64,000 nt of DNA from Naegleria gruberi (taxonomy: Eukaryota), in NCBI GenBank assembly GCA_000004985.1, contig GG738912.1. One strand, written 5' to 3'. The notes below the pieces were generated by a model. The model was not told the DNA's origin. It saw nothing but the letters and a program-made list of their open reading frames with translations, and searched no databases. This document shows positions 9,723-27,733 of this stretch, piece by piece (the stretch's first letter is position 1; each line of letters opens with the position of its first letter). The translations under genes and the position numbers were made by a program.

Positions 9723-11123
9723 TTATTTGAAAACAAGAACAACATTCTTTTCTGCAAAACCACAGTAAAGTTCTCCAGTAGCACTGTCCAAAGCAATTAC
9801 CATTCCACTTCCAGCATGATATAAACCAAACTTGTAAGGACTATTCTCATTCATGAAAGAAGTGAGACAGGTTCCATCTTCCTTCATAGAATCAATACCA
9901 TATTGAACACAATAAATCTTATTAGTATTTGGTTCAAATTGTGGACATTTTTGAGTGTAGGTTCTTTGCTTGTCAAATTTCTTTAAGATTTTTCCATTCT
10001 TGTTAGTTACCAAGATGGTATCTTCATTGATAAGGACAAGTTCGTTATTGACATTAATACCCATACAATCAATTCTGCTCAATCCAAAAACATTGTTTCC
10101 TTGAATGTTTTGTCTCAAAGTCTTGATAATTTTACCAGTGTCAGGTGACAAAAAGTCAACTCCTCCATTTTGAGCAATGTAAATAGTACCATCAACCTTA
10201 TCAACAGCCATACTATAAATCATACCAGTGCCATCATTTTCCCAGAATACCATCTTACCATTTCTAGAAATTTTCACAATGGTTGATGCACAACATCTGT
10301 CAATAACATAAACAAGTGCCTTATCCTTGGTATCATAACAGAGATGCATATTATCTCTGTCTTGAGGTTCCTTGAAGTGATTCTTCAACATTTTAGTCTT
10401 TAAATCAAATTCAAAGAAAGTCCAACGATCAGCAACGAAAATGGTACGATTGACTGGATCAATTGCAAGACCAGCAACTCCAGCAAATTCAAAATTAAAA
10501 TCTTCATTCTCACCCAAAGTACCAATATGATTATAATTTCCACTGAATGGAACAAAACCACCAGAAGAAGCAGCAACAGATGAACCAGAACCACCAGAGG
10601 AAGAACCTGCACTAGTCAACTCTGAAACATCATTAACATGAGATTTGGTCTTGTTTGATGAATTGTGCAATTTCAAGTGATTTTCACACATGTGAGCATT
10701 ACATTGTTTACAATGATGAGTTGCCAAAACTTTCTCTTCATCATCAGTCAAACACTTGTCACAATTCTTTGCAGCAGAAACTTGACTTTCAATTGGAACC
10801 ACTGAAGAAGCATGTGATTTAGTCTTATTGGAAGTATTGTGAAGATTCAAGTGGTTTTCACAAAAGCACATATTACAGCTAGGACAGGAATGAGTAGCTG
10901 GAATAGTTTCGTCTTCATCCTTTAAACATTTATCACAGTTTCGAATAGTGGATGCTGCAGATAATTCAACAAGATCACTAACGTGTGATTTAGTCTTGTT
11001 TGAAGTATTGTGAAGATTTAAGTGATTATCACAATAGTTCATTTTACATTGCTTGCAGTTGTGAGTTGCAGGCACAGTTTCGTTTTCGTCCTTCAAACAT
11101 TTATCGCAATTGACAACTTTCAT
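9723..11123 (-). CDS. B-box-type zinc finger (x3) plus beta-propeller (NHL-like) protein
   Basis: 466-aa ORF from ATG 11123. It has three near-identical ~50-aa repeats, CDKCLKDEDETIPATHSCPSCNMCFCENHLNLHNTSNKTKSH, with B-box-like C/H spacing. These are followed by a Ser/Gly linker and a repetitive beta-strand-rich C-terminal half (GTIYIAQNGG, GELYCGF) consistent with an NHL or six-bladed propeller. Confidence 0.55.
   Translation of the reverse strand: MKVVNCDKCLKDENETVPATHNCKQCKMNYCDNHLNLHNTSNKTKSHVSDLVELSAASTIRNCDKCLKDEDETIPATHSCPSCNMCFCENHLNLHNTSNKTKSHASSVVPIESQVSAAKNCDKCLTDDEEKVLATHHCKQCNAHMCENHLKLHNSSNKTKSHVNDVSELTSAGSSSGGSGSSVAASSGGFVPFSGNYNHIGTLGENEDFNFEFAGVAGLAIDPVNRTIFVADRWTFFEFDLKTKMLKNHFKEPQDRDNMHLCYDTKDKALVYVIDRCCASTIVKISRNGKMVFWENDGTGMIYSMAVDKVDGTIYIAQNGGVDFLSPDTGKIIKTLRQNIQGNNVFGLSRIDCMGINVNNELVLINEDTILVTNKNGKILKKFDKQRTYTQKCPQFEPNTNKIYCVQYGIDSMKEDGTCLTSFMNENSPYKFGLYHAGSGMVIALDSATGELYCGFAEKNVVLVFK
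10630..11123 (-). repeat. three tandem ~150-bp coding repeats (B-box fingers) inside gene 9723-11123
   Basis: The three copies are highly similar at DNA level (…gtgattttcacacatgtgagcattacattgtttacaatgatgagttgcc… versus …gtggttttcacaaaagcacatattacagctagga…). Confidence 0.6.
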
Positions 11124-11442: not shown

Positions 11443-12735
11443 ATGGCAAACTTTTCATTTAGTTTGAATGGTGTATTGAACAATCTACCAAGCTCCTTGT
11501 CATCCATTGGATACAAGGCTAAGAATGCACTCAGTAGAAAGTTAAAAAGTTCAAACGAAGGTAAACGAAACCCACATGCACCTTCAGATAACGATTTTGA
11601 TGAAAATGACTCATCAAATAATAACAATAATAAGAAACCATCCTCTTCATCATCCAACAGATTGGATAATTCATCATCTTCAAAGGCAACTATCAAATCG
11701 TCCAATAAGAAACCAAGAGTAAAGAAACCGAAAGTTGAAGTCAAGTATTGTGATAAATGCTTGAAAGATGAAGAAGAAAAAGTCCAAGCCACTCATTATT
11801 GCTCTGGTTGTTCCATGAATTATTGTGAAGCACACATAAATCTTCACAATTCGGCCAACAAGACGAAAGGTCATGCCGAAAGTGGTCAAGTTTCAAGTCT
11901 AGCTGCTGCACATGTTCCACTTGCTCTCTTACCAGACTTGCAACAAATTTGTGTGCTTCCCAATCCAGATAGCCCATTTTCATGCACAATTGACCATGGT
12001 TATGGTTCTCTATTCGTTCTTGATGGAGATATGTTTATGGAATATGATTTAACAACTAAAGAATTGGTAAATCATTTCAGAGAACCTCAAGAAAGACGTG
12101 CAGTTCGTGTCTGTTACGATTCCAATGATGATACTCTCATTTATGTACTTGACAGATGTGCTTCACATGATATTGTAAAAACTTCAAGAGATGGAAAGAT
12201 GATTCATTGGCAATTGGATGATCAATCACCAATTCGTGATATGAGTGTCGATCCAATTGATGGAACTATTTATACAGTTCAAAATGATGGAATTGTTTGT
12301 GTGAAGGATGGAAAAGTTTCGTCCACATTGAGAGAAAACATTAATGGAAATAACATGTTTGTGGACACCTATGACAATATTTGTGGAGTGACAACTAATC
12401 ATGAAAATAACTTGATAGTTGTTTCGAATAGATATATTATTACTTGTAATAAGAAGGGAAAGATATTTAGCAAAGTTGAAAAGGTCAGTTCTGGTGCAAG
12501 TAAGAGAATTCATTTGGATCCAAGTGGAGAACACATGTACTTTATTGGAGACAGTGGAATTGAGTCAACCAAATTGAATGGAACTTGTCGTACAGAATTT
12601 AGAAATGACAAGGTTGACTATGATCATAAATTTGAAGTTTCTAGAGGAGAAGGAATAGACATGGCCATTGATTTCACATCTGGAGAAGTTTATGTTGTCA
12701 ATCCTCACAAATCAAAAGTTCAAGTATTCAAATAA
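11443..12735 (+). CDS. B-box-type zinc finger (x1) plus beta-propeller (NHL-like) protein, paralog of 9723-11123
   Basis: 430-aa ORF from ATG 11443. The N-terminus is Ser/Asn-rich. It has one B-box-like finger (CDKCLKDEEEKVQATHYCSGCSMNYCEAHINLHNSANKTKGH) and a C-terminal propeller-like half collinear with its neighbour's (GTIYTVQNDG, GEVYVVNPHKSKVQVFK). Confidence 0.55.
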   Translation: MANFSFSLNGVLNNLPSSLSSIGYKAKNALSRKLKSSNEGKRNPHAPSDNDFDENDSSNNNNNKKPSSSSSNRLDNSSSSKATIKSSNKKPRVKKPKVEVKYCDKCLKDEEEKVQATHYCSGCSMNYCEAHINLHNSANKTKGHAESGQVSSLAAAHVPLALLPDLQQICVLPNPDSPFSCTIDHGYGSLFVLDGDMFMEYDLTTKELVNHFREPQERRAVRVCYDSNDDTLIYVLDRCASHDIVKTSRDGKMIHWQLDDQSPIRDMSVDPIDGTIYTVQNDGIVCVKDGKVSSTLRENINGNNMFVDTYDNICGVTTNHENNLIVVSNRYIITCNKKGKIFSKVEKVSSGASKRIHLDPSGEHMYFIGDSGIESTKLNGTCRTEFRNDKVDYDHKFEVSRGEGIDMAIDFTSGEVYVVNPHKSKVQVFK

Positions 12736-14725: not shown

Positions 14726-16381
14726 TTAATACAAGAATTCTGCAAACAATGGCAAGTGATCAGAGCCATGATCTTCATCAGGAATACTTGATTTTGGAAC
14801 GAATTCCAAACAAGGTCCACTATCTTTCACTTGCAAACTTGGAGAATGCCATATGTAATCAACTATTGAATTTCTACCAGTCGTTCCACAACAAGTCCAA
14901 AACTCCTGAACTGTATCATGACTCTTTTGCAGTGGAATACTTTCACAAGCTTCAATTAATTGTATTGGTTTCTCGTGTGGACTTGTATTGAAATCTCCAA
15001 ACCAAATAATACTTGTCTTTTGAGGATCAGCAATTTTTCCAATTTGATTCAAAATTTCATTCACTTGTTTTTCTCTTGGGCCAGTATCACGAGGTTGGAA
15101 TGTCAAATGACAATTTATAATACAGAAGAATCGACCTTTCACTCTATCCCTTGCAATAACGTATTGAAATACTTCAGGATACTCCTTCACTAAGGTCTTT
15201 TCTCCCTTATTGAATATTTCAAATTTGGTATTTCTAATAGCAAGTATCAAGCCGTCCTTCTTTGGATAATTCTTATACGAATGGTAAACTGAAAATCCTT
15301 CTTGTTCCAGAAAGAATTGAATTTGAGAAGCATGTTGATTATCAATTTCTTGTAGACCAATTATATCAAATCTTCTCTCCTTCAAGACGGAAAATATTTT
15401 ATACTTTCGTATTTCCCAATCCAGATATTTCTGATTGGTAATATTCGAATATCTACTCAAAGAAATGTAACATTGTGCCAAAATATTATAGGAACAGACC
15501 AGAATAGTTGGTGGAGGAAAGGACAGATTAGTTTGTGGTAGATTTTCTGATCTTGATCCAATGATGACCTGATTATTCTGGACTGGAGAAACATGAAAAT
15601 GTTGAAATTGCTTTCCAGAATTTTGAGGATTGTAAAAATTTTGAGGAGGATAATTTTGAATTGCTTGATTTGGATAATTTGCAATTGGTTGTAAAATTTT
15701 GGGATTTGCATATTGAATTGGAGGAGGTTGATTTTGTTGGTGGTGTTGTTGATGACTATTAGAAACTGAACTAGTTCCTTTCTGATTATTACCATAATGA
15801 GCTTGATAGGTAGTTTGATTTTTGGCAGGTTTTTGACTACTTGACTGATTAGTAGAATCAATCTGCTTCTTCTTCTTCTCATTCACCCCATGACATTCCT
15901 TCCACACAGGTTCATCACTTCCATGTATAAAACAATATCTATGCCATCTTTCCTTATTATAGCATTTTTCACCATATTTGCACGGATGATGAAACTTGAA
16001 TTTGTGTGAAAATTCCTTATTTTCATCCAGTAATGATTTACAATTTAGTCCATACTTGCACGGATGATAAAATTGAAAATTATGATTGGAATCATTGGTG
16101 AGTTTACAATTTTCCCAATTTGGACATCTCAAAGAAACTAATTGTTCATCATCAATCCCTTGAATTACATTCGAAACATCTGAAAAAAAGTGTTTGGCCT
16201 TTCGAATAATTTCTTTCGAAAAATTAGTTTCATGTTTAAAAGTTAAATTGTGTTTCTTATTGGTGAGGAGAGAACAATCCTTCCCGAATGGACAGGTATG
16301 GATGAAATAATGTGTATGATTGGAGTCAAATAGATTATAACAATTTTCATCGTATTGACAAACTGTAAGTTTTGATGACAT
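14726..16381 (-). CDS. PBZ-type (C2H2 PAR-binding) zinc fingers fused to an endonuclease/exonuclease/phosphatase (EEP) domain
   Basis: Starts at ATG 16381; the track's 16393 is a TTG. The N-terminal third has at least four repeats matching the PBZ pattern C-x-[FY]-G-x2-C-x6-8-H-x3-[FY]-x-H (CPFGKDCSLLTNKKHNLTFKHE; CKYGLNCKSLLDENKEFSHKFKFHH; CKYGEKCYNKERWHRYCFIH). A Gln/Asn/Pro-rich linker follows. The C-terminal EEP domain shows ILVCSYNILAQ, FDIIGLQEID, IWFGDFNTSP and EDHGSDHLPLFAEF, resembling CCR4, Angel or TDP2. Confidence 0.6.
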   Translation of the reverse strand: MSSKLTVCQYDENCYNLFDSNHTHYFIHTCPFGKDCSLLTNKKHNLTFKHETNFSKEIIRKAKHFFSDVSNVIQGIDDEQLVSLRCPNWENCKLTNDSNHNFQFYHPCKYGLNCKSLLDENKEFSHKFKFHHPCKYGEKCYNKERWHRYCFIHGSDEPVWKECHGVNEKKKKQIDSTNQSSSQKPAKNQTTYQAHYGNNQKGTSSVSNSHQQHHQQNQPPPIQYANPKILQPIANYPNQAIQNYPPQNFYNPQNSGKQFQHFHVSPVQNNQVIIGSRSENLPQTNLSFPPPTILVCSYNILAQCYISLSRYSNITNQKYLDWEIRKYKIFSVLKERRFDIIGLQEIDNQHASQIQFFLEQEGFSVYHSYKNYPKKDGLILAIRNTKFEIFNKGEKTLVKEYPEVFQYVIARDRVKGRFFCIINCHLTFQPRDTGPREKQVNEILNQIGKIADPQKTSIIWFGDFNTSPHEKPIQLIEACESIPLQKSHDTVQEFWTCCGTTGRNSIVDYIWHSPSLQVKDSGPCLEFVPKSSIPDEDHGSDHLPLFAEFLY

Positions 16382-16414
16382 TTTTTTTGACAAGTGAATT
16401 CTGACAGATAAAAA

Positions 16415-17302
16415 ATGGTAGCATCAAGCGAAGAAGAACACGATCAGGAAACATCAACAACAGCTGCATCACTTTCGATATCAAGTGTTGTTGGTGGAAT
16501 TAAAAATTTACTTGGTGAATTATTTGACAAGGCATCAACTGAAGAAATTGATCATGTAATTGCATTGACAGGATTTAATGCATTGAAAGCTTATACATGT
16601 TTATTGGAAAAGTATCCTCCACCTACTGTTCCGGTGTCAAATGTTGTGGAACAGCAGCCATCTGTCAGTAGTCAAAATATTCCCCTGACACAACAATATT
16701 TTCAACCATCACAATTACCAATTCAACATGTTCATCAAAATATTGATCCGATGATGATGAGCCAATTTATGATGCAAAATCAATTTATGCCTGTCGGATG
16801 TCAACAATTCAATCAAATTCCTCAATTTCAACAACAGCAACCTATGAATCAATCTACATGTATTTTGATGAATGATGGAATGGGAAGACAATATTATATG
16901 ATTTCTGATCCAAGTCAAATGTCAAGTAATAATTCAATGATGGTCAGCAGTGGAATTACAACTTCCAACCCAACTCCTCAACCATCTTCTACATCAATTA
17001 CAGCATCTACTTCAATTGCAACTCAAACATCTACTTCTAATACACCTGCCACATCAACGCAACCTGCCACCACTCATGTCACCATTGACAAGAAGAAGAA
17101 ATGTAAAGATTGGGACAAATGTACTCAAACTGGCGACCAAACACACGTTGAGAAATTCTTCCATCCATGCAGAAATGGATCTCATTGCAAGAATATTGAA
17201 AATGTCATTCATCAAAATAGATTTGTTCATCCTTGTAAAGATGGAAAGCAATGTAAGAAGAAGGATGATAATTTACACAATATTATGTTTACTCATAAAT
17301 AA
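16415..17302 (+). CDS. Q/S/T-rich protein with a possible UBA-like N-terminal helix bundle and C-terminal PBZ-like fingers
   Basis: 295-aa ORF from ATG 16415. The EEIDHVIALTGFNALKAYTCLLEKY segment is UBA-like, though this is weak. The C-terminus carries CKDWDKCTQTGDQTHVEKFFHPC, CRNGSHCKNIENVIHQNRFVHPC and CKDGKQCKKKDDNLHNIMFTH, which have PBZ-like spacing. Confidence 0.45.
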   Translation: MVASSEEEHDQETSTTAASLSISSVVGGIKNLLGELFDKASTEEIDHVIALTGFNALKAYTCLLEKYPPPTVPVSNVVEQQPSVSSQNIPLTQQYFQPSQLPIQHVHQNIDPMMMSQFMMQNQFMPVGCQQFNQIPQFQQQQPMNQSTCILMNDGMGRQYYMISDPSQMSSNNSMMVSSGITTSNPTPQPSSTSITASTSIATQTSTSNTPATSTQPATTHVTIDKKKKCKDWDKCTQTGDQTHVEKFFHPCRNGSHCKNIENVIHQNRFVHPCKDGKQCKKKDDNLHNIMFTHK

Positions 17303-17369
17303 AATCAATGCTTTTGCTTGTCAAATTGTGAATTCACTTGTCAAATCATCGTTTTACCTGTCAAAAAAA

Positions 17370-19100
17370 ATGTTACCTTATCGTCCGCCTATTGTTCAGC
17401 CAATTCAACAGTTAATTCCGGTGTATTCCTACATGCCATCAACTTCATCATCGCCTGCCACTCCAACCAATGATCAATCACATCAATCAACTGCCACAAA
17501 TCAAAATAATCAGCAAAGTATTTGCAAATTTGGTCCAAATTGTCCCAACTATGACCAATGTACCTCTCTTCATCCATGCCGTTACGGAGAAGATTGCAGA
17601 AGAATTTCAAGAGTTGTTAACAAGACTCAGAAATTACAAGACATTGTTCACTGTTCCAAATGTTTCCATATTTGTAAATGGGGTGAGAAGTGCAAATATT
17701 TGAATGATGAAGAACATGTAAATATGTTTCTTCACACGTGTACTAAATCAAATTGTAAAGATGAAGTTCACAAAGAGAGATTTAGACATAAATGCAAATA
17801 TGGAAAAAATTGTCGTTCCTTAGATGGAAAATATGAAAATTGGGAACATTATGTCAAGTTTATTCATCCTAGGACTAATGGAGTTATGAGACATGTAGAA
17901 AAACAAATGTATTATCTATTTTCTGAAATATCTAATGATGAAAGCAATTCAAAAACTGCTCAATCTGACATTCCTGGTTTGACACTTGTAAAGAAGAGTA
18001 CACTCAAACCACAAGTGAAAGATAGAAAACGATCTGCCAAATGTGAAATTTCCACAATCGATGGTAAATCCACAGAGTATTATTTCATTGGGTATGAGAA
18101 GGGTGCTGGAAATTCGTCAACTTCAAAAGTCGTTTGTTTTAAAGAGACTGGAAAGGGAGTTTTTGAAGGTCATATTAAGGTAGTTGCAGAATCTAGTTGT
18201 GTATTTGATGGAAATGCAAAGATTGAACAACCTTGGTATCATTCAAAAGTTAATGTTTATAGAAATACTGTCATTAGTCAAGTATTTGATGAAATTTTGA
18301 AACAAGGTTTGAATGGAGTGAGCCCAAATGCTACCTATATCGATGTTATGAAATACATGATAGAACAGCATGATATTCCAATATTTATTGTTGGAGGAGC
18401 TGTCAGAGATGTCATTCGAGAAGTGATTGTTGAAAAAAAGACCAATGCCTTACAAATTATGAATAATATTAAGGATATTGATATTGGATTTGGTTGTGAT
18501 CCACAGACATTTCATGGACGCCTCACTCGAAAATATAAATCAGGTGTTCCAATTCCTGGACCTCGTGGACTAGTTCAAGTAGGAAGCTCCAATGGTTCTG
18601 ATCTATTCCTGGAAGGTAAAGCCATTAATGGTTTAAATAATGATAATAAGAGTGTGAAAGCACAAATTGCTCAATGTTATGGAACTAATCTGAGAGGAGA
18701 AAACATTTGTAGAGATTTCACATGTAATTCTCTTTGGTATGATCCAATCAATAAGTGCATTATTGATACTATTGGAAATGGGCAAGGAATTAAGGACGTA
18801 ATTTCAAAAAATTTACGAATTCCTGTAAAACCAAGAGATTGGGAATTTTGGGTTTCTGGCAATCCAACAAAGTTGATGAGATTTTACAAATTCCTTTTGA
18901 AGGGATATTCTGCAGATGCCAAAACTAAATCATTCATAATTGAACAAGTTAAAAGTGGTAAATTTATTAGTGATATGGAAATTAGAACTCAATACACAAA
19001 AGGAATTGGAAAAGCCAACAAAGCAAGGTTGGAGAATTTGTTGAGAAGTGATTTTGGTGATCAGTTTTACAATAATTATTTCGCTAATCATATTAAATAA
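17370..19100 (+). CDS. PBZ-like zinc fingers fused to a class II nucleotidyltransferase (CCA-adding / poly(A)-polymerase head domain)
   Basis: The true ATG is at 17370. The track ORF from 16950 is an out-of-frame over-extension through the upstream gene. Three finger repeats are present (CKFGPNCPNYDQCTSLHPC; CKWGEKCKYLNDEEHVNMFLHTC; CKYGKNCRSLDGKYENWEHYVKFIHP). Nucleotidyltransferase motifs follow: GGAVRD, DIDIGF (the DxD motif) and CRDFTCNSLWYDP (the RRD/ERDFTINAL motif of CCA-adding enzymes). Confidence 0.6.
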   Translation: MLPYRPPIVQPIQQLIPVYSYMPSTSSSPATPTNDQSHQSTATNQNNQQSICKFGPNCPNYDQCTSLHPCRYGEDCRRISRVVNKTQKLQDIVHCSKCFHICKWGEKCKYLNDEEHVNMFLHTCTKSNCKDEVHKERFRHKCKYGKNCRSLDGKYENWEHYVKFIHPRTNGVMRHVEKQMYYLFSEISNDESNSKTAQSDIPGLTLVKKSTLKPQVKDRKRSAKCEISTIDGKSTEYYFIGYEKGAGNSSTSKVVCFKETGKGVFEGHIKVVAESSCVFDGNAKIEQPWYHSKVNVYRNTVISQVFDEILKQGLNGVSPNATYIDVMKYMIEQHDIPIFIVGGAVRDVIREVIVEKKTNALQIMNNIKDIDIGFGCDPQTFHGRLTRKYKSGVPIPGPRGLVQVGSSNGSDLFLEGKAINGLNNDNKSVKAQIAQCYGTNLRGENICRDFTCNSLWYDPINKCIIDTIGNGQGIKDVISKNLRIPVKPRDWEFWVSGNPTKLMRFYKFLLKGYSADAKTKSFIIEQVKSGKFISDMEIRTQYTKGIGKANKARLENLLRSDFGDQFYNNYFANHIK

Positions 19101-19142: not shown

Positions 19143-22100
19143 TTAATTTTTTCTATTCCTTTTTGGTTTAGAAACAAATGTTGGGACTCTTGTGAGTGAT
19201 TGTTTTTCATATTCAAACTCTATCGCGGAAAAATGGTTATATTGTTCACCAAAGTATCCTCTAGCTTCTTGGTTTCCATTTTTAGCAGCTTTCAACAACC
19301 AGAGTGTTCCTTGTGTTACATCTGTTTCACATAATAACTTTCCCAACGCCAACTCTGCATCTGAATTTTGTTGTTGAGCAGCTTTGAGCAACCATGAATG
19401 TGCAAGCTTAATGTTTTTCGGGACAACCTTATCAAGTCCATACATATAAATCATTCCAAGAGAATATTGTGCATTTGAATTTCCTTGATTAGCAGATTTG
19501 CAATACCACTCAAAAGCAAGTGAATAATTGGGTGTTTGGATGATATTAAGTGTATGATGATAAATGCAAGCTACTTCATATTGGGCTTCATTATTTCCAA
19601 GTTCAGCAGCTTTTTGATAGTAATCCCATGCTTTTTGATTATCCTTTAATTCTTTATAGAGATATCCTAAACGAAAGAGTGCTTCTGAATTCTTCACATC
19701 AGATTCTACTGCTTTTAGATACCATATAATGGCCTCATGTTTATCCAATAAAACACCATCACCCAGCTCATACATTTCTCCAATATCATATTGTGAATCA
19801 GAATCATTGAATTTTGTAGATGCTTCCAAATACAATTCGTGTGCTTCTTGATAATTACCCTTATTAAAAAACATTCTAGCCACATTTCTAAGAGCTTCAA
19901 TATGCGTACTTATTATTTCAGCTTCTCTAAAAATAAGTTTTCTATATTCTTCATCAATTTCCATTCTTTTTAAATTCATATTATTACCTAATATAATGTG
20001 TTCGCCAGAAACTAAGATATCTGTAGTAATAGTAGAAAGCTTTTGCTTGGATAAATCGAGTGCTTTTTGGTAAAGTTTAAATGCCAACAATTCATTACTT
20101 GATATTCCATTATCACCATCTTCAAGCATTGATGCAACATAATTAATGGCAGGAATATAGTTACTATCATATACTTTCTTAAATAGCTCAAAAGTTTCGG
20201 TATTGTTTGTTTTGGAATAATGAATAGCTTGTTGGAATAATTTCTCCCCTTTATCATTACTAACTTCCAAAATCATATCCAATTGACTTGCAGAATATAA
20301 AACTCCATATTCCACGCCTTCCATTTCTAAAGTATTAACGTTCATCTCATATTGGTTTCTTCTTTGAGCATCTTCTATAAAATAAGAAATCAATTTTCTT
20401 TTTTGAGAATCATTATTTAACACTAAAGAGTAGAGAGTGTAATTATTTTGCTCTGATTTCTCCATTTCTAAAATGTGAGAGGAGAAGTTTGGGATTAGAA
20501 TAAATCTGCTTTTGTCTTTGATTAAATGGCCCATTTTTAAACCAAATTGTGTGACAGATTTTAGAGAGGAATTTAGAGAAATAATATGCACCTCCTTGTC
20601 CTTAAGAAATAATACAAAAAATCTCCAAAAAAGGTCCATCATTTCCGAGACCATTTGAACTCGCTGTTTCTTTTTGTTAATCTGTTTGAAAATAGTTTGA
20701 AATAATTCCTTATAAATATCTTCCATCCTTTTTTGATAATCATTTGGTTTCGTGTTGTTTTTGAAAATATTTGCTATCTTGTACTTGATAAATGTGATTA
20801 AATGTTGTCTGTCATCTACACGTGCTATTTGAGAATTTGGGTCTTTAAACTCTAATTTTTGAGAAACTAACAATTGCATACTATCATATAATTTACCAAC
20901 TAGAGAAACACTGCGCCTCAATGGACCATGTTTGTTCTTGTGGTAGTGTGGAAAGCCAGGGAATTTTTCAAGTAGTTCTAAATCTTGTGCATTTACAGCA
21001 ACACTGTAGTTGCCTTTTTTGGGAGCGTCGATAGCCCTGTTGATGAGAGTACATAATCTTTCCATGTTATTCCAGTATTTTCGTGACCATTGATTTCCAT
21101 AAAAATCAGCAAACAAATGACGAATTCCAATCAAGTCTTTGAATATATCAGGATCGAATGATCGTGTCTCATTGTAGTCGTCATCAAAAGATCCTGGATC
21201 GAACTCTACTAATGATTCTACTAGTTCGTTATCCCAACATGCAAAATATTGATCTCCATCTAGATCAGATCCTGCAATCATATTTGTTATTGGTCTACTT
21301 CCTTTTGTAGGAAAAACAATAACATCGTAAAGAAAATTCAATTCAGGAATGTTGACTGCCTCTAATTTTCTCAGGTCACCACGATGTAAGCATGGCTCTT
21401 TAGTGACAATCACAGTATTCTCAATTACATTCTTCTTCTTTGGATCATTTAGAGAGGAAACTTGAATAAATATTTGACCTTCTTTGAGTACTCCGAAAGG
21501 ATCTGCTATTCCGTACAACCTTCTAGAACTGTAACAAGGAATTCTCAAGGAGAGTATTTGGTTTCTGTAGGGGCCTGTCAGGAAAGCAAGCTTTTTGCTT
21601 TTTAGAATGGAAAGAACGTTAAGAGAGGCATAGTCTCCTTGTTTTACGTACTGATCAAAAACCTTGTCAATGTCCGATTCTGAAATATAGTTTTTCATCA
21701 AATTTTCAATATGTTTACAGGCCTTTTGGTTTAGTATTTCGAATATCTTTCCTTGTTTTGTTTCATCTTCACACCCTTCTAAAATGTGCATAATTGTCGA
21801 ATTGATTCTAGCAAAATCACAGGGGCTTGAATAACCTACGATGCATAAATTATTAATTATATCATCATCAGTGTTTGGGTGTTCAATTTTCATCATTGAT
21901 TTCCTTAGCACTAAATGGTGACCATACACCTTTTCCGCATTTGGATGGATGTAAACCATGCCTTTGGCTCCTCTAAATCTTATTTGGTATGCACAGGGAA
22001 GATATTCATTGACTAGAAACTCTACTCCATCATTTTCTTCGTAGATACCATCTTCATCCATCGATTGTTTGCTCTGGTATTTCAATAAATTTTTAGATTT

Positions 22101-23297
22101 ACGAACAATTTCATAAACTTTCATAGCCAATTCAAGAGAAATAAATCCACATCCATCGGTGAAAAGTCCCTCATCATTAATAACAGTGTATTCTGAAACT
22201 CCAATAGTAGGAATAACAGGAGTATTAAATAAAGCCAGTCTTAAACTTTGCTTTAATTTGTTATTCTCAAAATAAAGATCCCTGTTCAATGTATCTGGAA
22301 TGGCCCATGTTTTTACATCATGTATTGATAGGGAAGAATTGTTTGGAAGTTTGGAAAGATCAGGACACATGTAAATAAATCGATAAGAATGCATTCCACT
22401 CGTATTTTGACACAGTTTCTGGAATGTAAATCCAGCAATATGTAAAGGCTCTTCTCTTTCTATATATGGCTCTATTAGCCTGAATGATTGGTTATCCATT
22501 AACACTCTGCTAATGTGCTTTTGGTCTTTCATTAATTTCAATGTTTCCTCATCGAATTTTCCTTCCTTGAATTGATTTAAATATTGTCTCAATAATACTA
22601 TATCTCCATGATCCTCTGATTTTGATTCCATAGCCACTTGATCCTTCAATTCAATATTATTTAAAATTTCAGGGTGCTCTCCAGTAGATTCAAGAATCAT
22701 TTGAGATTTGAAACCCATTCTCAAAAAGCTAAATCCAACATTCAACACTGTATTCACACCAAATTTTTGTCTAAACCTACTCTGTAGCCATCTATCTTGT
22801 TGTGAGCTGTTGAATCGAATGGCAAGAATGGGTGATATCTTTGGTTTGTAAAAACAATATAAGGTTGCTGTTCTAGTCCTAAACATTGTCTCTGATTCGT
22901 CCAATTCTTCTGTTGTTTGCTTACTTGGAGATGAAAGGTTTAAATTCTGATGATCCTCTTCCTTCTCTGTTATTGTTGCTAACAACCACCGATGAAGAGC
23001 CTCTAATCCTATCGGATAGGCAATCACTGCCATCCTAGAAACTCTCTTTAATATTTCATAGCGATCGACGAAGGACATTCCACAATACTTTTCCCCTCTC
23101 ACATTTTTGAAATTAAATTCCAAATATTTGGTACAATCATCAAAATTTCTAATGATCGGAATGGATTCAATCATGTAATAAGTTGCCAATAAATCCTTTA
23201 CGTAATTTTCATCTTGTCTATTCATAAACTTTAACTCTTCAAGTTGTTGAATCTTTTCAAGCTTTGAGAACCCAGAAACAAAAGACAATACGGACAT
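19143..23297 (-). CDS. cellular RNA-dependent RNA polymerase (RDR family) with C-terminal Sel1-like repeats
   Basis: 1384-aa intron-less ORF from ATG 23297. The catalytic RDR signature GSDLDGDQYFACWD is at about 21252-21293. The C-terminal ~300 aa (about 19143-20030) hold at least five Sel1/TPR-like repeats (AQYEVACIYHH…, AQYSLGMIYMYGL…, AELALGKLL…). Confidence 0.8.
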   Translation of the reverse strand: MSVLSFVSGFSKLEKIQQLEELKFMNRQDENYVKDLLATYYMIESIPIIRNFDDCTKYLEFNFKNVRGEKYCGMSFVDRYEILKRVSRMAVIAYPIGLEALHRWLLATITEKEEDHQNLNLSSPSKQTTEELDESETMFRTRTATLYCFYKPKISPILAIRFNSSQQDRWLQSRFRQKFGVNTVLNVGFSFLRMGFKSQMILESTGEHPEILNNIELKDQVAMESKSEDHGDIVLLRQYLNQFKEGKFDEETLKLMKDQKHISRVLMDNQSFRLIEPYIEREEPLHIAGFTFQKLCQNTSGMHSYRFIYMCPDLSKLPNNSSLSIHDVKTWAIPDTLNRDLYFENNKLKQSLRLALFNTPVIPTIGVSEYTVINDEGLFTDGCGFISLELAMKVYEIVRKSKNLLKYQSKQSMDEDGIYEENDGVEFLVNEYLPCAYQIRFRGAKGMVYIHPNAEKVYGHHLVLRKSMMKIEHPNTDDDIINNLCIVGYSSPCDFARINSTIMHILEGCEDETKQGKIFEILNQKACKHIENLMKNYISESDIDKVFDQYVKQGDYASLNVLSILKSKKLAFLTGPYRNQILSLRIPCYSSRRLYGIADPFGVLKEGQIFIQVSSLNDPKKKNVIENTVIVTKEPCLHRGDLRKLEAVNIPELNFLYDVIVFPTKGSRPITNMIAGSDLDGDQYFACWDNELVESLVEFDPGSFDDDYNETRSFDPDIFKDLIGIRHLFADFYGNQWSRKYWNNMERLCTLINRAIDAPKKGNYSVAVNAQDLELLEKFPGFPHYHKNKHGPLRRSVSLVGKLYDSMQLLVSQKLEFKDPNSQIARVDDRQHLITFIKYKIANIFKNNTKPNDYQKRMEDIYKELFQTIFKQINKKKQRVQMVSEMMDLFWRFFVLFLKDKEVHIISLNSSLKSVTQFGLKMGHLIKDKSRFILIPNFSSHILEMEKSEQNNYTLYSLVLNNDSQKRKLISYFIEDAQRRNQYEMNVNTLEMEGVEYGVLYSASQLDMILEVSNDKGEKLFQQAIHYSKTNNTETFELFKKVYDSNYIPAINYVASMLEDGDNGISSNELLAFKLYQKALDLSKQKLSTITTDILVSGEHIILGNNMNLKRMEIDEEYRKLIFREAEIISTHIEALRNVARMFFNKGNYQEAHELYLEASTKFNDSDSQYDIGEMYELGDGVLLDKHEAIIWYLKAVESDVKNSEALFRLGYLYKELKDNQKAWDYYQKAAELGNNEAQYEVACIYHHTLNIIQTPNYSLAFEWYCKSANQGNSNAQYSLGMIYMYGLDKVVPKNIKLAHSWLLKAAQQQNSDAELALGKLLCETDVTQGTLWLLKAAKNGNQEARGYFGEQYNHFSAIEFEYEKQSLTRVPTFVSKPKRNRKN

Positions 23298-23479: not shown

Positions 23480-24667
23480 TTACCACCAAAATACTATGTC
23501 AGTATTAGTCTGTTTGGAAAATTCATCACTAATTTTGTTTCCACTCACGTCTAATAATTGTAAATTCTTCATTTGTGTGATTGCCTTAAGTCCTTCATCC
23601 GTTATTTCATTGTTATTTACATATAAAATAGATAATTTCTCTAATTCACTAATGTAGTGTGCTCCTTCGTCTTGAATATCATTGAGTGAAATATCTAGTT
23701 CAGTTACGCGTTGCATTTTGCTGATAAATTTTGCTCCAGTTGGGCCAATTTCGCAATTATTGATCAAAAGTGTTGTCAATTGTTCAAGTTCACCGATTGA
23801 TTCTGCTCCTTGTTGTCCAATTAAATTGAAACCAACATTGATAAATGTCAAGCCTTTCAGTTGGCTAATTGAATTGGCTCCTTCCTCTCCAATTCCATTA
23901 CTACTAACATCTAGTTTGGTTAAATTCTTCATATGGCTTATTGAATACATTCCTTCATCACCAATGTTATTGCTGCCAATGAAAAGCTCTCTTAATTGAT
24001 CTAATTGTGCAATGAGTTCTGCTCCTTGTATTCCAAGATCATTATCATTAATTCTGAGAGAGGTTAAATTTCTCATCCCACTAACTACCTCCACATCCAA
24101 ACATTTGAGCTTAGTGTATGACATGTCCAGAATAGTCAATTGCTTCATATCTTTAATTTTACAAACTGATTCAAAACTAAATCTATTTCCAGAAACATTA
24201 AGTTCTTTCAATTGCTTCATTTGTGAAATTACACTGATTTCTCTATCAGAAATTTTACAAAACACAACATGAAGCCTCCTTAAATGCTCGCATCGTGCAA
24301 TGCTCTCTATTGCATCAATAGTTATTTCATTCTTGTTATTAATAACAAGAGAATTCAGCCTTTGTGCCATTTCAATTCCATTCCAAAATCTTTCATTCTG
24401 AATTCTTGCTCTGACTTCAATATTCGTAAAATATGATAACCATTCAAAATGTTCAATATTAGAATGTCTATTAATTATTACTATTGAAAGAATCGATCGT
24501 TCCCTAATTACATTCATCCATTGTTTAGAAATTAATAAACAATTCTTCAATAGGAATTTGTGATCCGCGTCTACAAAGGAGAGAATTTCAAAAATTACAT
24601 CATCAGAAAATAATTCTTGATGTTGTGATTTGATGCGGGTGGAATCTTCTACGTGATTGTTGAGCAT
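23480..24667 (-). CDS. RI-like leucine-rich-repeat protein with F-box-like N-terminus
   Basis: 395-aa ORF from ATG 24667. The N-terminus (FEILSFVDADHKFLLKNCLLISKQWMNVI) is F-box-like. It is followed by ~24-aa repeats of the type LxxLxxLdISxNxIGdEGAxxISxLxx. It is a paralog of the array at 52335-53769. Confidence 0.6.
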   Translation of the reverse strand: MLNNHVEDSTRIKSQHQELFSDDVIFEILSFVDADHKFLLKNCLLISKQWMNVIRERSILSIVIINRHSNIEHFEWLSYFTNIEVRARIQNERFWNGIEMAQRLNSLVINNKNEITIDAIESIARCEHLRRLHVVFCKISDREISVISQMKQLKELNVSGNRFSFESVCKIKDMKQLTILDMSYTKLKCLDVEVVSGMRNLTSLRINDNDLGIQGAELIAQLDQLRELFIGSNNIGDEGMYSISHMKNLTKLDVSSNGIGEEGANSISQLKGLTFINVGFNLIGQQGAESIGELEQLTTLLINNCEIGPTGAKFISKMQRVTELDISLNDIQDEGAHYISELEKLSILYVNNNEITDEGLKAITQMKNLQLLDVSGNKISDEFSKQTNTDIVFWW

Positions 24668-27360: not shown

Positions 27361-27733
27361 GGTGTTTTTTTTGTATTGTTTTTCTCTCAAGATCTTGTGA
27401 GGAGAGAACTCGAAGCTCAATAGAATTTGATTCTTCTAAGTGTTTGGGGAGACCGAAATATTCGGAAGTTTTGAAAAGATCCGTTTAATGTGTAAGCAAT
27501 TCTGAACCTTCTTTAAGGATTTTTAATAATCACGAACGACTCCCCGAATACAATATGGTTTCACACATTGTAAATTTAACAGAGTTACGAATATTAAATT
27601 ATAATTAATCTAATTAATAATAAAGCATCAATATATTGCTAACTAGATTGCTAATCAATCATGCATGGATTTGAAACTAGATCCAATATCTATCACGTAA
27701 ATATTCAAAACTCATTAATAAAACATGAATTGT

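What the first reader, a model, noticed from the sequence alone, without database searches (positions are those of the whole stretch)
14726..19100. Tight cluster of three PBZ-finger genes, fusing PBZ fingers to an EEP nuclease and to a CCA-type nucleotidyltransferase
Three adjacent genes (14726-16381 minus, 16415-17302 plus, 17370-19100 plus) all carry repeats with the PBZ spacing C-x-[FYW]-G-x2-C…H-x3-[FY]-x-H. PBZ fingers bind poly(ADP-ribose) and are normally found on DNA-damage-response proteins. Here they are fused to two different nucleic-acid enzymes: an EEP-superfamily nuclease/phosphodiesterase, and a class II nucleotidyltransferase bearing GGAVRD, DxD and RDFTCN motifs. I do not know of these fusions as described architectures. 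Having a 3'-end-adding enzyme and a 3'-end-removing or phosphodiester-cleaving enzyme side by side, both carrying the same PAR-reader module, suggests a co-regulated pair of PAR-recruited RNA- or DNA-end-processing enzymes. The genes are also packed far more tightly than their neighbours.
Basis: partly seen in the sequence, partly recalled or inferred. Interest (0 to 1): 0.65.

Follow-up and report, generated by a model that had tools for sequence, protein, structure and literature searches.

The report
PBZ-finger RNA-end enzyme gene cluster
In the amoeba Naegleria gruberi, three neighbouring genes attach arrays of a divergent poly(ADP-ribose)-reader zinc finger to an RNA-trimming-type nuclease, an RNA-tailing-type enzyme and an adaptor; related species keep the same genes beside PARP genes, which points to an undescribed pathway linking ADP-ribose signalling to RNA-end processing.

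Summary
The window is Naegleria gruberi. Thirteen C-x5-C-x6-11-H-x5-H fingers lie in three adjacent genes and nowhere else in 64 kb.

No finger reaches Pfam's PBZ threshold. A profile of them, however, finds the two APLF PBZ domains as best PDB hit (E 2e-7; hhalign 95%). A tandem-finger profile retrieves 538 proteins. Of 145 scanned, 36 pass Pfam PBZ, 35 carry PARG, 21 PARP, and a few WWE, NADAR or ART. The fingers are therefore a divergent, tandem PBZ subfamily.

- **Gene 1:** adds a catalytically intact CCR4/Nocturnin/Angel-type EEP domain.
- **Gene 3:** adds an SH3-like barrel and a class II nucleotidyltransferase with intact carboxylates. The base-selecting EDxxR motif is replaced by invariant GNP[ST]K, so it is not a CCA-adding enzyme.

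EEP-NTase linkage recurs in N. lovaniensis, N. fowleri, Willaertia and one uncultured lineage. It usually sits beside PBZ-PARP genes with an H-Y-E triad. Genes 1 and 3 share an exact 15-mer upstream of their start codons.

My best reading is a PARP-signal-recruited pair of opposing RNA 3'-end enzymes. PAR binding and substrates are untested, and most PAR-contact residues are not conserved. I found no published description. Verdict: new variant of a known kind, interest about 0.6.

The parts
14726..16381 (-). Gene 1: 551-aa protein with five N-terminal PBZ-like fingers, a Q/N/P-rich linker and a C-terminal CCR4/Nocturnin/Angel-type EEP domain
   Evidence: ORF. 100% identical to an annotated N. 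gruberi predicted protein. Pfam Exo_endo_phos 61.6 bits. Best PDB relatives are ANGEL2 and Nocturnin.
15923..16360 (-). PBZ-like finger array of gene 1 (two fingers, a ~35-aa spacer, then three fingers)
   Evidence: Regex scan. The last finger, CKYGEKCYNKERWHRYCFIH, has canonical x6 spacing and is the best Pfam PBZ match: 15.8 bits, full length, below cutoff.
14756..15493 (-). EEP catalytic domain of gene 1 (aa 297-542)
   Evidence: Pfam. The alignment to Nocturnin/ANGEL2 conserves SYNIL(N), LQEID(E), GDFN(D,N), DYIW(D) and SDH(D,H).
16415..17302 (+). Gene 2: 295-aa protein with a conserved helical N-terminal region, a Q/S/T-rich linker and three C-terminal PBZ-like fingers (17102-17296). No catalytic domain.
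   Evidence: ORF, fingers, no Pfam hit. Orthologues with the same three terminal fingers occur in N. lovaniensis (58% identity over the array), N. fowleri and Willaertia.
17370..19100 (+). Gene 3: 576-aa protein with 4-5 PBZ-like fingers, an SH3-like beta-barrel and a divergent class II nucleotidyltransferase
   Evidence: ORF. The MLP start is conserved in N. lovaniensis and N. fowleri orthologues. Homologues are 34-55% identical.
17523..17867 (+). Finger array of gene 3. The first unit is degenerate (C-x5-C-x5-C-x3-H) and the others are C2H2 with variable loops.
17982..18269 (+). Conserved small beta-barrel domain between the fingers and the NTase (invariant Q-P-W)
18270..19097 (+). Class II NTase head/neck. 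GGAVRD...KDIDIGFG, LEGK and CRDFTCN are invariant. Motif D is GNPTK instead of EDxxR.
   Evidence: Pfam PolyA_pol aa 338-483. Invariant columns. AF2 pLDDT 85.8. Foldseek top hits are CCA-adding enzymes and E. coli PAP. The HMM alignment to E. coli PAP puts 'rEDPvR' opposite 'kGnPtk'.
16387..16401 (-). Upstream element GAATTCACTTGTCAA, 5 nt before the gene 1 ATG, inside the 33-bp divergent spacer shared with gene 2
   Evidence: This exact 15-mer occurs only twice in the window; shuffles expect 0.00.
17330..17344 (+). Second copy of GAATTCACTTGTCAA, 25 nt before the gene 3 ATG. It lies within three YTGTCAAA copies spaced 20 bp apart (17318, 17338, 17358).

Best explanation
The three genes are the N. 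gruberi copy of a conserved heterolobosean gene module.

**Shared module (shown at sequence level).** Each gene carries a tandem array of a divergent PBZ-type C2H2 zinc finger. The unit is C-x5-C-x6/7-H-x5-H, and units are joined by a one-residue H-x-C linker.

**Role of the array (inferred).** It acts as a shared targeting module that brings its cargo to ADP-ribose polymers, or ADP-ribosylated targets, made by PARPs that carry the same finger. These PARPs have an H-Y-E triad. They sit inside the cluster in sister species and are unlinked in N. gruberi.

**Cargoes (shown by sequence and model).**
- A catalytically intact CCR4/Nocturnin/Angel-type EEP hydrolase, a 3'-end-removing or dephosphorylating type.
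- A catalytically intact but atypical class II nucleotidyltransferase, a 3'-end-adding type. Its nucleotide-selecting EDxxR motif is replaced by GNP[ST]K, and it is preceded by an SH3-like barrel.
- A finger-only adaptor.

**Proposed function (inferred).** On a PARP-activating stimulus such as stress, damage or infection, the two opposing enzymes are co-expressed and co-recruited to trim and re-extend RNA 3' ends. A known precedent is the LCCR4 / CCA-adding-enzyme cycle on tRNA in Trypanosoma.
For: **Finger identity**
- A profile of 33 fingers finds both APLF PBZ domains as the top hit in the whole PDB (E 2.3e-7), each aligned over all four ligands.
- hhalign against APLF PBZ1/2 gives 95.1% probability, E 3e-8.
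- A tandem-finger profile finds 538 representatives at E <= 1e-3 and 196 at E <= 1e-10.
- Of 145 scanned, 36 pass Pfam PBZ (best E 2e-43), 35 have microbial-type PARG, 21 PARP, 2 WWE, 1 NADAR and 1 ART.

**Conserved linkage**
- N. lovaniensis has SIR2, PBZ-PARP, PBZ-EEP, PBZ-NTase, EEP2, PBZ-PARP and the gene 2 orthologue in 12 kb. N. fowleri has the same set.
- Willaertia has PBZ-EEP, PBZ-PARP and NTase within 10 kb, and a second locus with PBZ-NTase followed by the gene 2 orthologue.
- One uncultured lineage has a 3-finger EEP head-to-head, 99 bp from a 3-finger NTase.
- Another has a PARP directly upstream of a 4-finger NTase.
- Gene order and orientation differ between lineages while adjacency persists.

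**Wider distribution and the unlinked writer**
- A malawimonad (Gefionella) transcript has 14 fingers plus the same NTase with GNPSK.
- N. gruberi has a 4-finger H-Y-E PARP on another scaffold.

**Catalytic competence**
- EEP residues are intact.
- NTase GG..RD, D-x-D, E and RD...N are invariant over about 35% identity, and the fold model has pLDDT 85.8.

**Co-regulation**
- Exact 15-mers lie upstream of genes 1 and 3.
- AACGTGA occurs only in or at cluster spacers in N. lovaniensis (5 of 5 sites) and N. fowleri (5 of 5 sites).

**Precedent**
- A CCR4-like EEP trims tRNA CCA tails and the CCA enzyme repairs them in T. brucei (PMC7897491).
Against: - No N. gruberi finger reaches the Pfam PBZ threshold.
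- The loop is one residue longer than canonical in most units.
- The positions equivalent to APLF Tyr386/Arg387 are aromatic or basic in only 2 of 13 fingers. They are usually K/R then N/K. The residue roles come from my knowledge of the APLF structures. PAR binding is therefore not assured.
- Tandem fingers with one-residue linkers resemble RNA-binding CCCH arrays, and weak partial CCCH hits exist.
- The N. gruberi locus has no PARP.
- Substrates of both enzymes are unknown. CCR4-clade EEPs include a 2',3'-cyclic phosphatase (ANGEL2) and an NADP(H) phosphatase (Nocturnin), so 'nuclease' is not certain.
- No expression data were available.
Confidence: 0.55

Rival explanations
1. The finger arrays are RNA-binding (for example polyadenosine-binding) modules, not PAR readers. 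Genes 1 and 3 would then be an ordinary deadenylase-like and poly(A)-polymerase-like pair tethered directly to RNA, with PARP playing no part in their recruitment.
For: - Tandem units with one-residue linkers and a CxYGxxC half-motif give weak partial hits to CCCH RNA-binding fingers (TIS11d, Nab2, ZC3H12).
- PAR-contact residues are poorly conserved.
- Both cargo domains belong to RNA 3'-end enzyme families.
- There is no PARP in the N. gruberi window.
Against: - The only full-length, four-ligand matches in the PDB are the APLF PBZ domains. CCCH hits cover only 8-13 residues.
- 60 of the 145 family members scanned carry a PARP, PARG, WWE, NADAR or ART domain.
- PARPs carrying the same finger sit next to the EEP and NTase genes in four other lineages.
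Confidence: 0.2
2. The enzymes act on ADP-ribose chemistry itself rather than on RNA. The EEP would be a PAR or NAD(P)-derived phosphodiesterase/phosphatase, in the manner of Nocturnin on NADP(H) or PDE12 on 2'-5' oligoadenylate. The NTase would add nucleotides to PAR termini or make a nucleotide signal. The fingers would hold them on their polymer substrate.
For: - The closest solved EEP relatives include Nocturnin and ANGEL2, which are not deadenylases.
- The NTase lacks the EDxxR template that reads CTP/ATP in CCA enzymes and PAP. It also appears to lack a long tRNA-binding body/tail: only about 250 columns align.
- The cluster also holds SIR2 and a second EEP next to PARPs.
- PARG and NADAR are frequent partners of the same finger.
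Against: - No class II NTase is known to use a non-RNA primer (my knowledge).
- Motif B RDxxxN and the head fold are typical of RNA 3'-OH extension.
- There is no direct evidence of any kind.
Confidence: 0.12
3. This is a DNA-damage-response pair. PBZ recruits a DNA 3'-end-cleaning EEP nuclease and a DNA-end tailing transferase to PARylated breaks, as APLF is recruited.
For: - Canonical PBZ proteins (APLF, CHFR, SNM1A, the Dictyostelium repair factors) are damage-response proteins (PMC4245714).
- The EEP superfamily includes APE1 and TDP2 (my knowledge).
Against: - The EEP's solved relatives are all CCR4-clade RNA/nucleotide enzymes. No APE1, TDP2 or DNase I appears at E <= 1.
- The NTase is the RNA-specific class II type with the ribose-reading RDxxxN motif.
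- No DNA-repair genes lie in any of the clusters.
Confidence: 0.08
4. The clustering has no functional meaning. The finger array spread to neighbouring genes by local duplication and exon shuffling, and the genes simply stayed where they arose.
For: - All finger genes in the window are contiguous.
- Local duplication is a simple route to shared modules.
- Naegleria is gene-dense, so short spacers are common.
Against: - Each array is most similar to its orthologue, not to its neighbour. Gene 2 fingers are 58% identical to N. lovaniensis gene 2 and about 34% to the other genes. The arrays are therefore old.
- Adjacency survives inversions and reordering across Naegleria, Willaertia and uncultured lineages at about 36-40% protein identity.
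- The promoters share specific elements.
Confidence: 0.05

Closest known systems
PBZ (PAR-binding zinc finger, Pfam PF10283) of APLF / CHFR / SNM1A and the Dictyostelium repair proteins
   Same: - C2H2 ligand set, CxYGxxC start, H-x3-[FY]-x-H-P end.
- Profile-level homology to APLF PBZ1/2.
- Occurs with PARP catalytic domains, as reported for Entamoeba, Dictyostelium and Capsaspora (PMC4245714).
   Different: - Below the Pfam threshold.
- The loop is mostly x7 with an N-D signature instead of x6 'YRKNP'.
- Arrays of 3-14 units are joined by a single residue, rather than 1-2 well-separated fingers.
- The second aromatic and the Arg are mostly missing.
- The cargo is RNA-end enzymes rather than DNA-repair factors.
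Bdelloid-rotifer-type PARGs with multiple PBZ repeats (mentioned in PMC4245714)
   Same: Long tandem PBZ arrays on an ADP-ribose enzyme. 35 of the 145 profile hits scanned are microbial-type PARG proteins with 7-15 fingers.
   Different: The cargo is an eraser of PAR, not an RNA-end enzyme. The organisms of these hits were not identified here.
Trypanosoma brucei LCCR4 / CCA-adding enzyme tRNA 3'-end trimming and repair cycle (PMC7897491)
   Same: A CCR4-family EEP and a class II nucleotidyltransferase act in opposition on the same RNA 3' end as a stress switch, in another member of Discoba.
   Different: - The trypanosome enzymes carry no PBZ fingers, are not reported as clustered and are not linked to PARP.
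- The NTase there is the housekeeping CCA enzyme, whereas gene 3 lacks EDxxR.
CCR4 / Nocturnin / ANGEL / PDE12 clade of EEP hydrolases
   Same: Best sequence matches among solved structures (ANGEL2 2.8e-9, Nocturnin 5.6e-9, CNOT6L 0.016). All catalytic residues are aligned.
   Different: No LRR or CCR4-NOT docking region. The N-terminal PBZ array is new for this clade in the literature I could search.
Class II nucleotidyltransferases (CCA-adding enzymes, bacterial poly(A) polymerase)
   Same: PolyA_pol head domain, GGxVRD / DxD / RDxxxN motifs, and head-neck fold.
   Different: - Motif D EDxxR is replaced by GNP[ST]K.
- A 10-residue insertion lies between GG..RD and DxD in Naegleria and Willaertia.
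- An N-terminal SH3-like barrel and a PBZ array are present.
- Only about 250 of about 400 target columns align, so the tRNA-binding body/tail seems absent.
- Sequence similarity to any solved member is weak (best E 1.9e-5 with a profile).

Membership tests
PBZ zinc finger (PF10283) | C2H2 ligands with C-x5-C-x6-H-x5-H spacing | tested here: inconclusive
   The ligand order and the x5 / x5 spacings are kept. The middle loop is x6 in 11 and x7 in 33 of 71 fingers counted across the proteins, where some proteins were entered under two names. In N. gruberi only one finger (gene 1, fifth) is x6.
PBZ zinc finger (PF10283) | Score above Pfam's gathering threshold (22.7 bits) | tested here: not met
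   No hit at E <= 0.1 on the whole proteins. The best single finger scores 15.8 bits and others about 10-11 bits.
PBZ zinc finger (PF10283) | Detectable homology to a structurally defined PBZ | tested here: met
   The finger profile's top PDB hit is APLF, with both PBZ domains aligned full length, E 2.3e-7. hhalign gives 95.1%, E 3.1e-8.
PBZ zinc finger (PF10283) | Continuity with proteins that Pfam accepts as PBZ | tested here: met
   36 of 145 proteins retrieved by the tandem-finger profile pass PF10283 at E <= 1e-3 (best 2e-43).
PBZ zinc finger (PF10283) | ADP-ribose-contacting residues (aromatic at C1+2; aromatic and Arg just after the second Cys, as in APLF Y381/Y386/R387; residue roles from my knowledge) | tested here: not met
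   In the 13 N. gruberi fingers the first aromatic is present in 8, the second aromatic in 2 and a basic residue at C2+2 in 2.
PBZ zinc finger (PF10283) | Co-occurrence with poly(ADP-ribose) metabolism | tested here: met
   The same finger is fused to the PARP catalytic domain in N. lovaniensis, N. fowleri, Willaertia and N. gruberi P0129. The family census is rich in PARP, PARG, WWE, NADAR and ART.
PBZ zinc finger (PF10283) | Binds poly(ADP-ribose) | not testable with these tools
   Needs a biochemical assay.
CCR4/Nocturnin/Angel clade of EEP hydrolases | Exo_endo_phos domain above threshold, with CCR4-clade enzymes as nearest solved relatives | tested here: met
   PF03372 61.6 bits against a cutoff of 24.5. 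ANGEL2, Nocturnin and CNOT6L are the top PDB hits.
CCR4/Nocturnin/Angel clade of EEP hydrolases | Catalytic Asn, Glu, Asp-x-Asn, Asp and Asp-His present | tested here: met
   SYNIL, LQEID, GDFN, DYIW and SDH align with Nocturnin/ANGEL2.
CCR4/Nocturnin/Angel clade of EEP hydrolases | LRR region that docks CCR4 proper into CCR4-NOT | tested here: not met
   No LRR family is found in gene 1. It is therefore a CCR4-like stand-alone enzyme, not CCR4 itself.
Class II nucleotidyltransferase (CCA-adding enzyme / bacterial PAP) | PolyA_pol head with motif A (GGxVRD...DxD) and motif B (RDxxxN) | tested here: met
   PF01743 35.2 bits against a cutoff of 23. G158 G159 D163, D185 D187, E231, and R264 D265 N269 are invariant in 8 sequences.
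Class II nucleotidyltransferase (CCA-adding enzyme / bacterial PAP) | Head-neck fold | tested here: met
   AF2 pLDDT 85.8. Foldseek top 29 PDB hits are all CCA-adding, A-adding or PAP enzymes, E down to 1.9e-8, TM about 0.45.
Class II nucleotidyltransferase (CCA-adding enzyme / bacterial PAP) | Motif D EDxxR, the protein template that selects CTP/ATP | tested here: not met
   It is replaced by invariant G-N-P-[ST]-K, aligned to 'EDPVR' of E. coli PAP. The same replacement occurs in the Gefionella homologue.
Class II nucleotidyltransferase (CCA-adding enzyme / bacterial PAP) | Body and tail domains that bind tRNA | tested here: inconclusive
   Only about 240-260 columns align to targets of about 400 residues. 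The C-terminal region of gene 3 is a short helical bundle. No residue-level alignment was available.

The most novel reading that the evidence does not exclude
Heterolobosea, and at least one malawimonad, possess a self-contained, co-regulated 'PAR island'. Dedicated PBZ-PARPs write a polymer that serves as a scaffold, or even as the substrate, for a finger-tethered trimming enzyme and a finger-tethered template-independent nucleotidyltransferase with a new nucleotide-selection motif. This would be a eukaryotic stress or immune pathway in which ADP-ribose signalling directly gates editing of RNA ends or PAR-chain ends. It would have no counterpart in animals, fungi or plants.
Probability: 0.2. 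Interest if true: 0.85.

Novelty: new variant of a known kind. Interest (0 to 1): 0.62.

Why it matters
PBZ is one of only four known poly(ADP-ribose) reader modules, and it is known almost entirely from DNA-damage proteins. Three things would follow if this reading is right.

- **Readers are undercounted.** A large PBZ subfamily escapes the curated Pfam model. The PARPs of Naegleria that carry it may be among those described in 2010 as having 'no known functional domains' (PMC2964712).
- **A new link to RNA ends.** That would tie ADP-ribose signalling to RNA 3'-end metabolism in a way not described in model organisms.
- **A rare eukaryotic cluster.** It is a conserved eukaryotic cluster of non-homologous genes that appear functionally linked, with shared promoter elements.

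It also gives testable candidates: a nucleotidyltransferase with a new motif D, and a PBZ variant lacking the canonical Tyr-Arg pair.

Tried and rejected
- **Pfam PBZ detection.** A Pfam scan of the whole proteins gave no PBZ hit. Scanning isolated fingers at E <= 10 gave only subthreshold PBZ and partial CCCH hits, so Pfam alone cannot settle the finger class.
- **Word-indexed homologue search with finger profiles.** The exhaustive representative search worked instead.
- **phmmer of gene 3 against the PDB.** It found nothing. A family profile was needed.
- **UBA/CUE idea for the gene 2 N-terminus.** I suspected by eye that the conserved N-terminal helical region of gene 2 and of one PARP was UBA/CUE-like. 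Pfam and a five-sequence profile against the PDB gave nothing significant, so I dropped the assignment.
- **RdRP neighbour.** The RNA-dependent RNA polymerase 42 bp downstream of gene 3 looked like a possible partner, since RdRP-NTase complexes exist in RNAi (my knowledge). No RdRP lies in the N. lovaniensis, N. fowleri or Willaertia loci, so the adjacency is probably specific to N. gruberi.
- **Searches that could not be run or added nothing.** The N. gruberi PBZ-PARP locus could not be fetched. The AFDB fold library was unavailable. The viral fold library gave nothing closer than cellular CCA enzymes.
- **Literature.** Searches for PBZ with Naegleria, nucleotidyltransferase, deadenylase or CCA-adding found no description of these architectures.

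Full report
**Source and observation.** The window is Naegleria gruberi. The 551-aa product of 14726-16381 (-) is 100% identical to an annotated N. gruberi 'predicted protein'. A six-frame scan of all 64 kb for C-x5-C-x4-14-H-x3-[FYWIL]-x-H finds units only in these three genes: five in gene 1, three in gene 2, and four plus one degenerate unit in gene 3. Nothing comparable occurs in the other 59 kb. Pfam confirms Exo_endo_phos in gene 1 (61.6 bits) and the PolyA_pol head in gene 3 (35.2 bits).

**What the fingers are.**

*Pfam result.* Pfam's PBZ model (PF10283, cutoff 22.7 bits) does not call them. The best single finger is CKYGEKCYNKERWHRYCFIH in gene 1, the only one with canonical x6 spacing. 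It reaches 15.8 bits over the full model. Others reach about 10 bits, and partial hits to CCCH fingers score similarly. The dominant spacing in this family is C-x5-C-x7-H-x5-H. Consecutive units are joined by one residue, H-[PTIK]-C.

*Profile evidence for PBZ.* A profile of 33 fingers searched against every PDB chain returns APLF as the top hit (E 2.3e-7). Both of its PBZ domains align across all four ligands. The next hits (Notch EGF, TIS11d) cover only the CxxGxxC half. hhalign against the two APLF PBZ domains gives 95.1% probability, E 3e-8. The finger set was chosen with a PBZ-like regex, so part of this is built in. The non-ligand columns (aromatic-Gly after Cys1, F/Y before His2, Pro after His2) also contribute.

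*Independent census.* This evidence does not depend on the regex. A three-finger profile built from window sequences and their homologues was run with HMMER over 1.84 billion representatives. It finds 538 proteins at E <= 1e-3 and 196 at E <= 1e-10. I scanned the 145 new hits among the best 150 against Pfam:

| Pfam family | Proteins of 145 |
|---|---|
| PBZ (PF10283; best E 2e-43) | 36 |
| Microbial-type PARG | 35 |
| PARP catalytic domain | 21 |
| Exo_endo_phos | 5 |
| PolyA_pol | 2 |
| WWE | 2 |
| NADAR | 1 |
| ART | 1 |

Several also carry RING fingers. The Naegleria fingers therefore belong to a large family that grades into accepted PBZ domains and lives almost exclusively with ADP-ribose enzymes.

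*Caveat.* The residues that stack on and bind ADP-ribose in APLF are the aromatic at C1+2 and the Tyr-Arg after Cys2 (my knowledge of the APLF structures). They are only partly kept. In the 13 N. gruberi fingers the first aromatic is present in 8, the second in 2, and the basic residue in 2. I call this a divergent tandem PBZ subfamily whose ligand is probably, but not demonstrably, an ADP-ribose polymer.

**The cargo domains.**

*Gene 1, EEP.* Its closest solved relatives are ANGEL2 (2.8e-9), Nocturnin (5.6e-9) and CNOT6L (0.016). No APE1, TDP2 or DNase I type appears. The alignments conserve every catalytic position: SYNIL, LQEID, GDFN, DYIW and SDH. It has no LRR, so it is a CCR4-like stand-alone enzyme.

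*Gene 3, NTase.* The C-terminal 390 residues were modelled with eight homologues (pLDDT 85.8, pTM 0.87).
- Foldseek's top 29 PDB hits are all class II CCA-adding or A-adding enzymes or E. coli poly(A) polymerase, with E down to 1.9e-8 and TM about 0.45 over about 250 columns.
- GG..RD, K-D-I-D, L-E-G-K and C-R-D-F-T-x-N are invariant across homologues that are only 38-54% identical to gene 3. The enzyme is almost certainly active.
- The motif D sequence EDxxR is replaced by invariant G-N-P-[ST]-K. In CCA enzymes and PAP this motif forms the protein template for CTP/ATP (my knowledge). The HMM alignment to E. coli PAP places 'rEDPvR' opposite 'kGnPtk'.
- The long tRNA-binding body/tail seems to be missing.

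It is therefore a new branch of class II NTases, not a CCA-adding enzyme.

**Comparative genomics.**

The fusion of fingers to this NTase recurs in Willaertia magna, N. lovaniensis, N. fowleri and several metagenomic proteins. It also recurs in a transcript of the malawimonad Gefionella okellyi with 14 fingers. Finger-EEP fusions recur in N. lovaniensis, Willaertia and metagenomes.

The linkage is conserved:
- **N. lovaniensis.** About 12 kb holds SIR2/zf-UBP, a 4-finger PARP, the 6-finger EEP, the 6-finger NTase, a second finger-less CCR4-like EEP, a 7-finger PARP and the gene 2 orthologue.
- **N. fowleri.** It has the same set.
- **Willaertia.** One locus has finger-EEP, finger-PARP and the NTase within 10 kb. 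A second has finger-NTase followed by the gene 2 orthologue.
- **Uncultured organism at 30% GC.** A 3-finger EEP sits head-to-head, 99 bp from a 3-finger NTase.
- **Another contig.** A PARP catalytic domain lies directly upstream of a 4-finger NTase.

Order and orientation differ between lineages. In N. gruberi the EEP is head-to-head with gene 2; in N. lovaniensis it is tail-to-tail with the NTase. Adjacency persists all the same. Each array is closest to its own orthologue, not to its neighbour, so the arrangement is old rather than a recent local duplication.

The cluster PARPs keep an H-Y-E triad by inspection of the sequences. The N. gruberi window has no PARP, but N. gruberi encodes a 4-finger H-Y-E PARP (NAEGRDRAFT_62784) on another scaffold. 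Citarelli et al. 2010 listed two orphan N. gruberi PARPs with 'no known functional domains' N-terminal to the catalytic domain (PMC2964712). These are plausibly the same proteins. I did not verify this.

**Co-regulation.**

The exact 15-mer GAATTCACTTGTCAA occurs only twice in the window. Both copies are in sense orientation just upstream of a start codon: 5 nt before gene 1 and 25 nt before gene 3. Shuffles expect 0.00 exact matches. The gene 1 copy lies in the 33-bp divergent spacer shared with gene 2. The gene 3 spacer holds three YTGTCAAA copies at 20-bp intervals.

In N. lovaniensis and N. fowleri the related heptamer AACGTGA occurs five times per 22-kb locus.
- **N. lovaniensis.** Four sites lie in cluster spacers and one lies 47 nt inside a PARP CDS.
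- **N. fowleri.** All five sites lie in cluster spacers, four of them in promoters.
- **Position upstream of the NTase start.** The heptamer sits 54-57 nt upstream of the NTase start in N. lovaniensis, N. fowleri and Willaertia.

This is suggestive evidence of a shared regulator. I have no expression data.

On packing, the four spacers (114, 33, 67, 42 bp) are the only run of four short gaps in the window. Isolated spacers of 22-83 bp occur elsewhere, so that part of the claim is only partly right.

**Mechanism.**

*Shown.*
- Three linked genes share a PBZ-family finger array.
- Two of them carry intact catalytic domains of families that remove and add RNA 3'-terminal nucleotides.
- The pair is kept together, and next to PARPs with the same finger, across deep divergences.

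*Inferred.*
- The arrays read the product of those PARPs.
- They co-localise two opposing 3'-end enzymes and an adaptor.
- The substrate is RNA.

The nearest functional precedent is T. brucei, where the CCR4 homologue LCCR4 strips tRNA CCA tails under stress and the CCA enzyme restores them (PMC7897491).

*Rivals.*
- The arrays bind RNA rather than PAR. The poor conservation of the Tyr-Arg pair and the CCCH-like tandem layout fit this reading. The PARP/PARG-dominated family census argues against it.
- The enzymes work on PAR or NAD-derived molecules themselves. Nocturnin and ANGEL2 are not deadenylases, and the NTase has lost its nucleotide template.
- It is a DNA-repair pair, which the enzyme subfamilies disfavour.
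- The clustering is accidental, which conservation through rearrangements disfavours.

**Novelty.** Full-text searches combining PBZ with Naegleria, nucleotidyltransferase, deadenylase, CCA-adding or Heterolobosea found no description of these architectures or of the cluster. Homologues exist in databases only as hypothetical proteins. The exact gene 2 and gene 3 products are not in the protein collection at all. The parts are known kinds: a PBZ reader, a CCR4-like EEP and a class II NTase. The PBZ subfamily, its fusion to these two enzymes, the altered NTase motif D and the conserved PARP-centred cluster are new variants. I rate interest at about 0.6.

Noticed in passing
window 16387-16401 (-) and 17330-17344 (+); also 17318, 17338, 17358: The exact 15-mer GAATTCACTTGTCAA occurs only twice in 64 kb, each time in sense orientation just upstream of a start codon (gene 1 and gene 3). 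It contains the 10-bp palindrome GTGAATTCAC. Gene 3's 67-bp spacer also carries three YTGTCAAA copies exactly 20 bp apart.
   Followed up: partly
L001 9945, 9986, 13942, 15622, 15743; L004 6613, 8446, 9946, 11967, 13756; L002 9576, 9947; window 106, 149, 177: The heptamer AACGTGA is confined to the spacers of the PBZ/PARP cluster in N. lovaniensis and N. fowleri. It sits 54-57 nt upstream of the NTase start in three species. In the N. gruberi window it is absent from the cluster, where the variant AAGTGAATTC is found instead, but it occurs three times within 140 nt upstream of an HSP70-family ORF (244-2058). This hints at a stress-type regulon.
   Followed up: partly
window 19143-23297 (-): A 1384-aa eukaryotic-type RNA-dependent RNA polymerase (Pfam RdRP, 265 bits) is fused to C-terminal Sel1/TPR repeats. 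It is convergent with gene 3 and only 42 bp away. The adjacency to the NTase is not seen in the other species' loci.
   Followed up: partly
window 16415-17299 (+) and 17370-19097 (+): The exact products of genes 2 and 3 are not in the 15-billion-protein collection, although gene 1's is. These two N. gruberi genes may be unannotated or modelled differently in the public annotation.
   Followed up: partly
L004 13281-13700 (-) and 5436-5564 (-); L002 9824-9901 (+): Several public gene models in N. fowleri and Willaertia appear truncated. In-frame PBZ-like fingers lie just outside the called CDS of the EEP, the gene 2 orthologue and the Willaertia 369-aa NTase.
   Followed up: no
L001 13964-15559 (-); L005 4665-6071 (-): N. 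lovaniensis and N. fowleri have a second CCR4-like EEP in the cluster without fingers. In an uncultured lineage the EEP next to the NTase is closer to this second paralogue and does carry three fingers.
   Followed up: partly
L002 1-1060; L003 7279-9796 and 16643-19444: Guanylate-binding-protein (GBP) GTPase genes flank the PBZ-EEP and PBZ-NTase genes at both Willaertia loci. GBPs are immune GTPases in animals, so this may hint at a defence context.
   Followed up: no
L001 6877-8379 (-); L004 15464-17115 (+): A SIR2 deacetylase/ADP-ribosyltransferase-family gene with an N-terminal zf-UBP ubiquitin-binding finger sits at the edge of the PARP/PBZ cluster in N. lovaniensis and N. fowleri. A ubiquitin E1 gene sits at the other edge.
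   Followed up: no
window 9723-11123 (-) and 11443-12735 (+): Two divergently arranged ORFs each have a weak, subthreshold B-box-like zinc-binding region (ANCHR-like_BBOX, about 20 bits). The second resembled a beta-propeller-repeat (NHL-like) protein by eye.
   Followed up: no
window 24603-25334 (-) and 26224-27420 (-): These are ORFs with typically bacterial domains (Peptidase_C39-like, and the BioY biotin transporter) in a eukaryotic genome. They are possible horizontal acquisitions.
   Followed up: no
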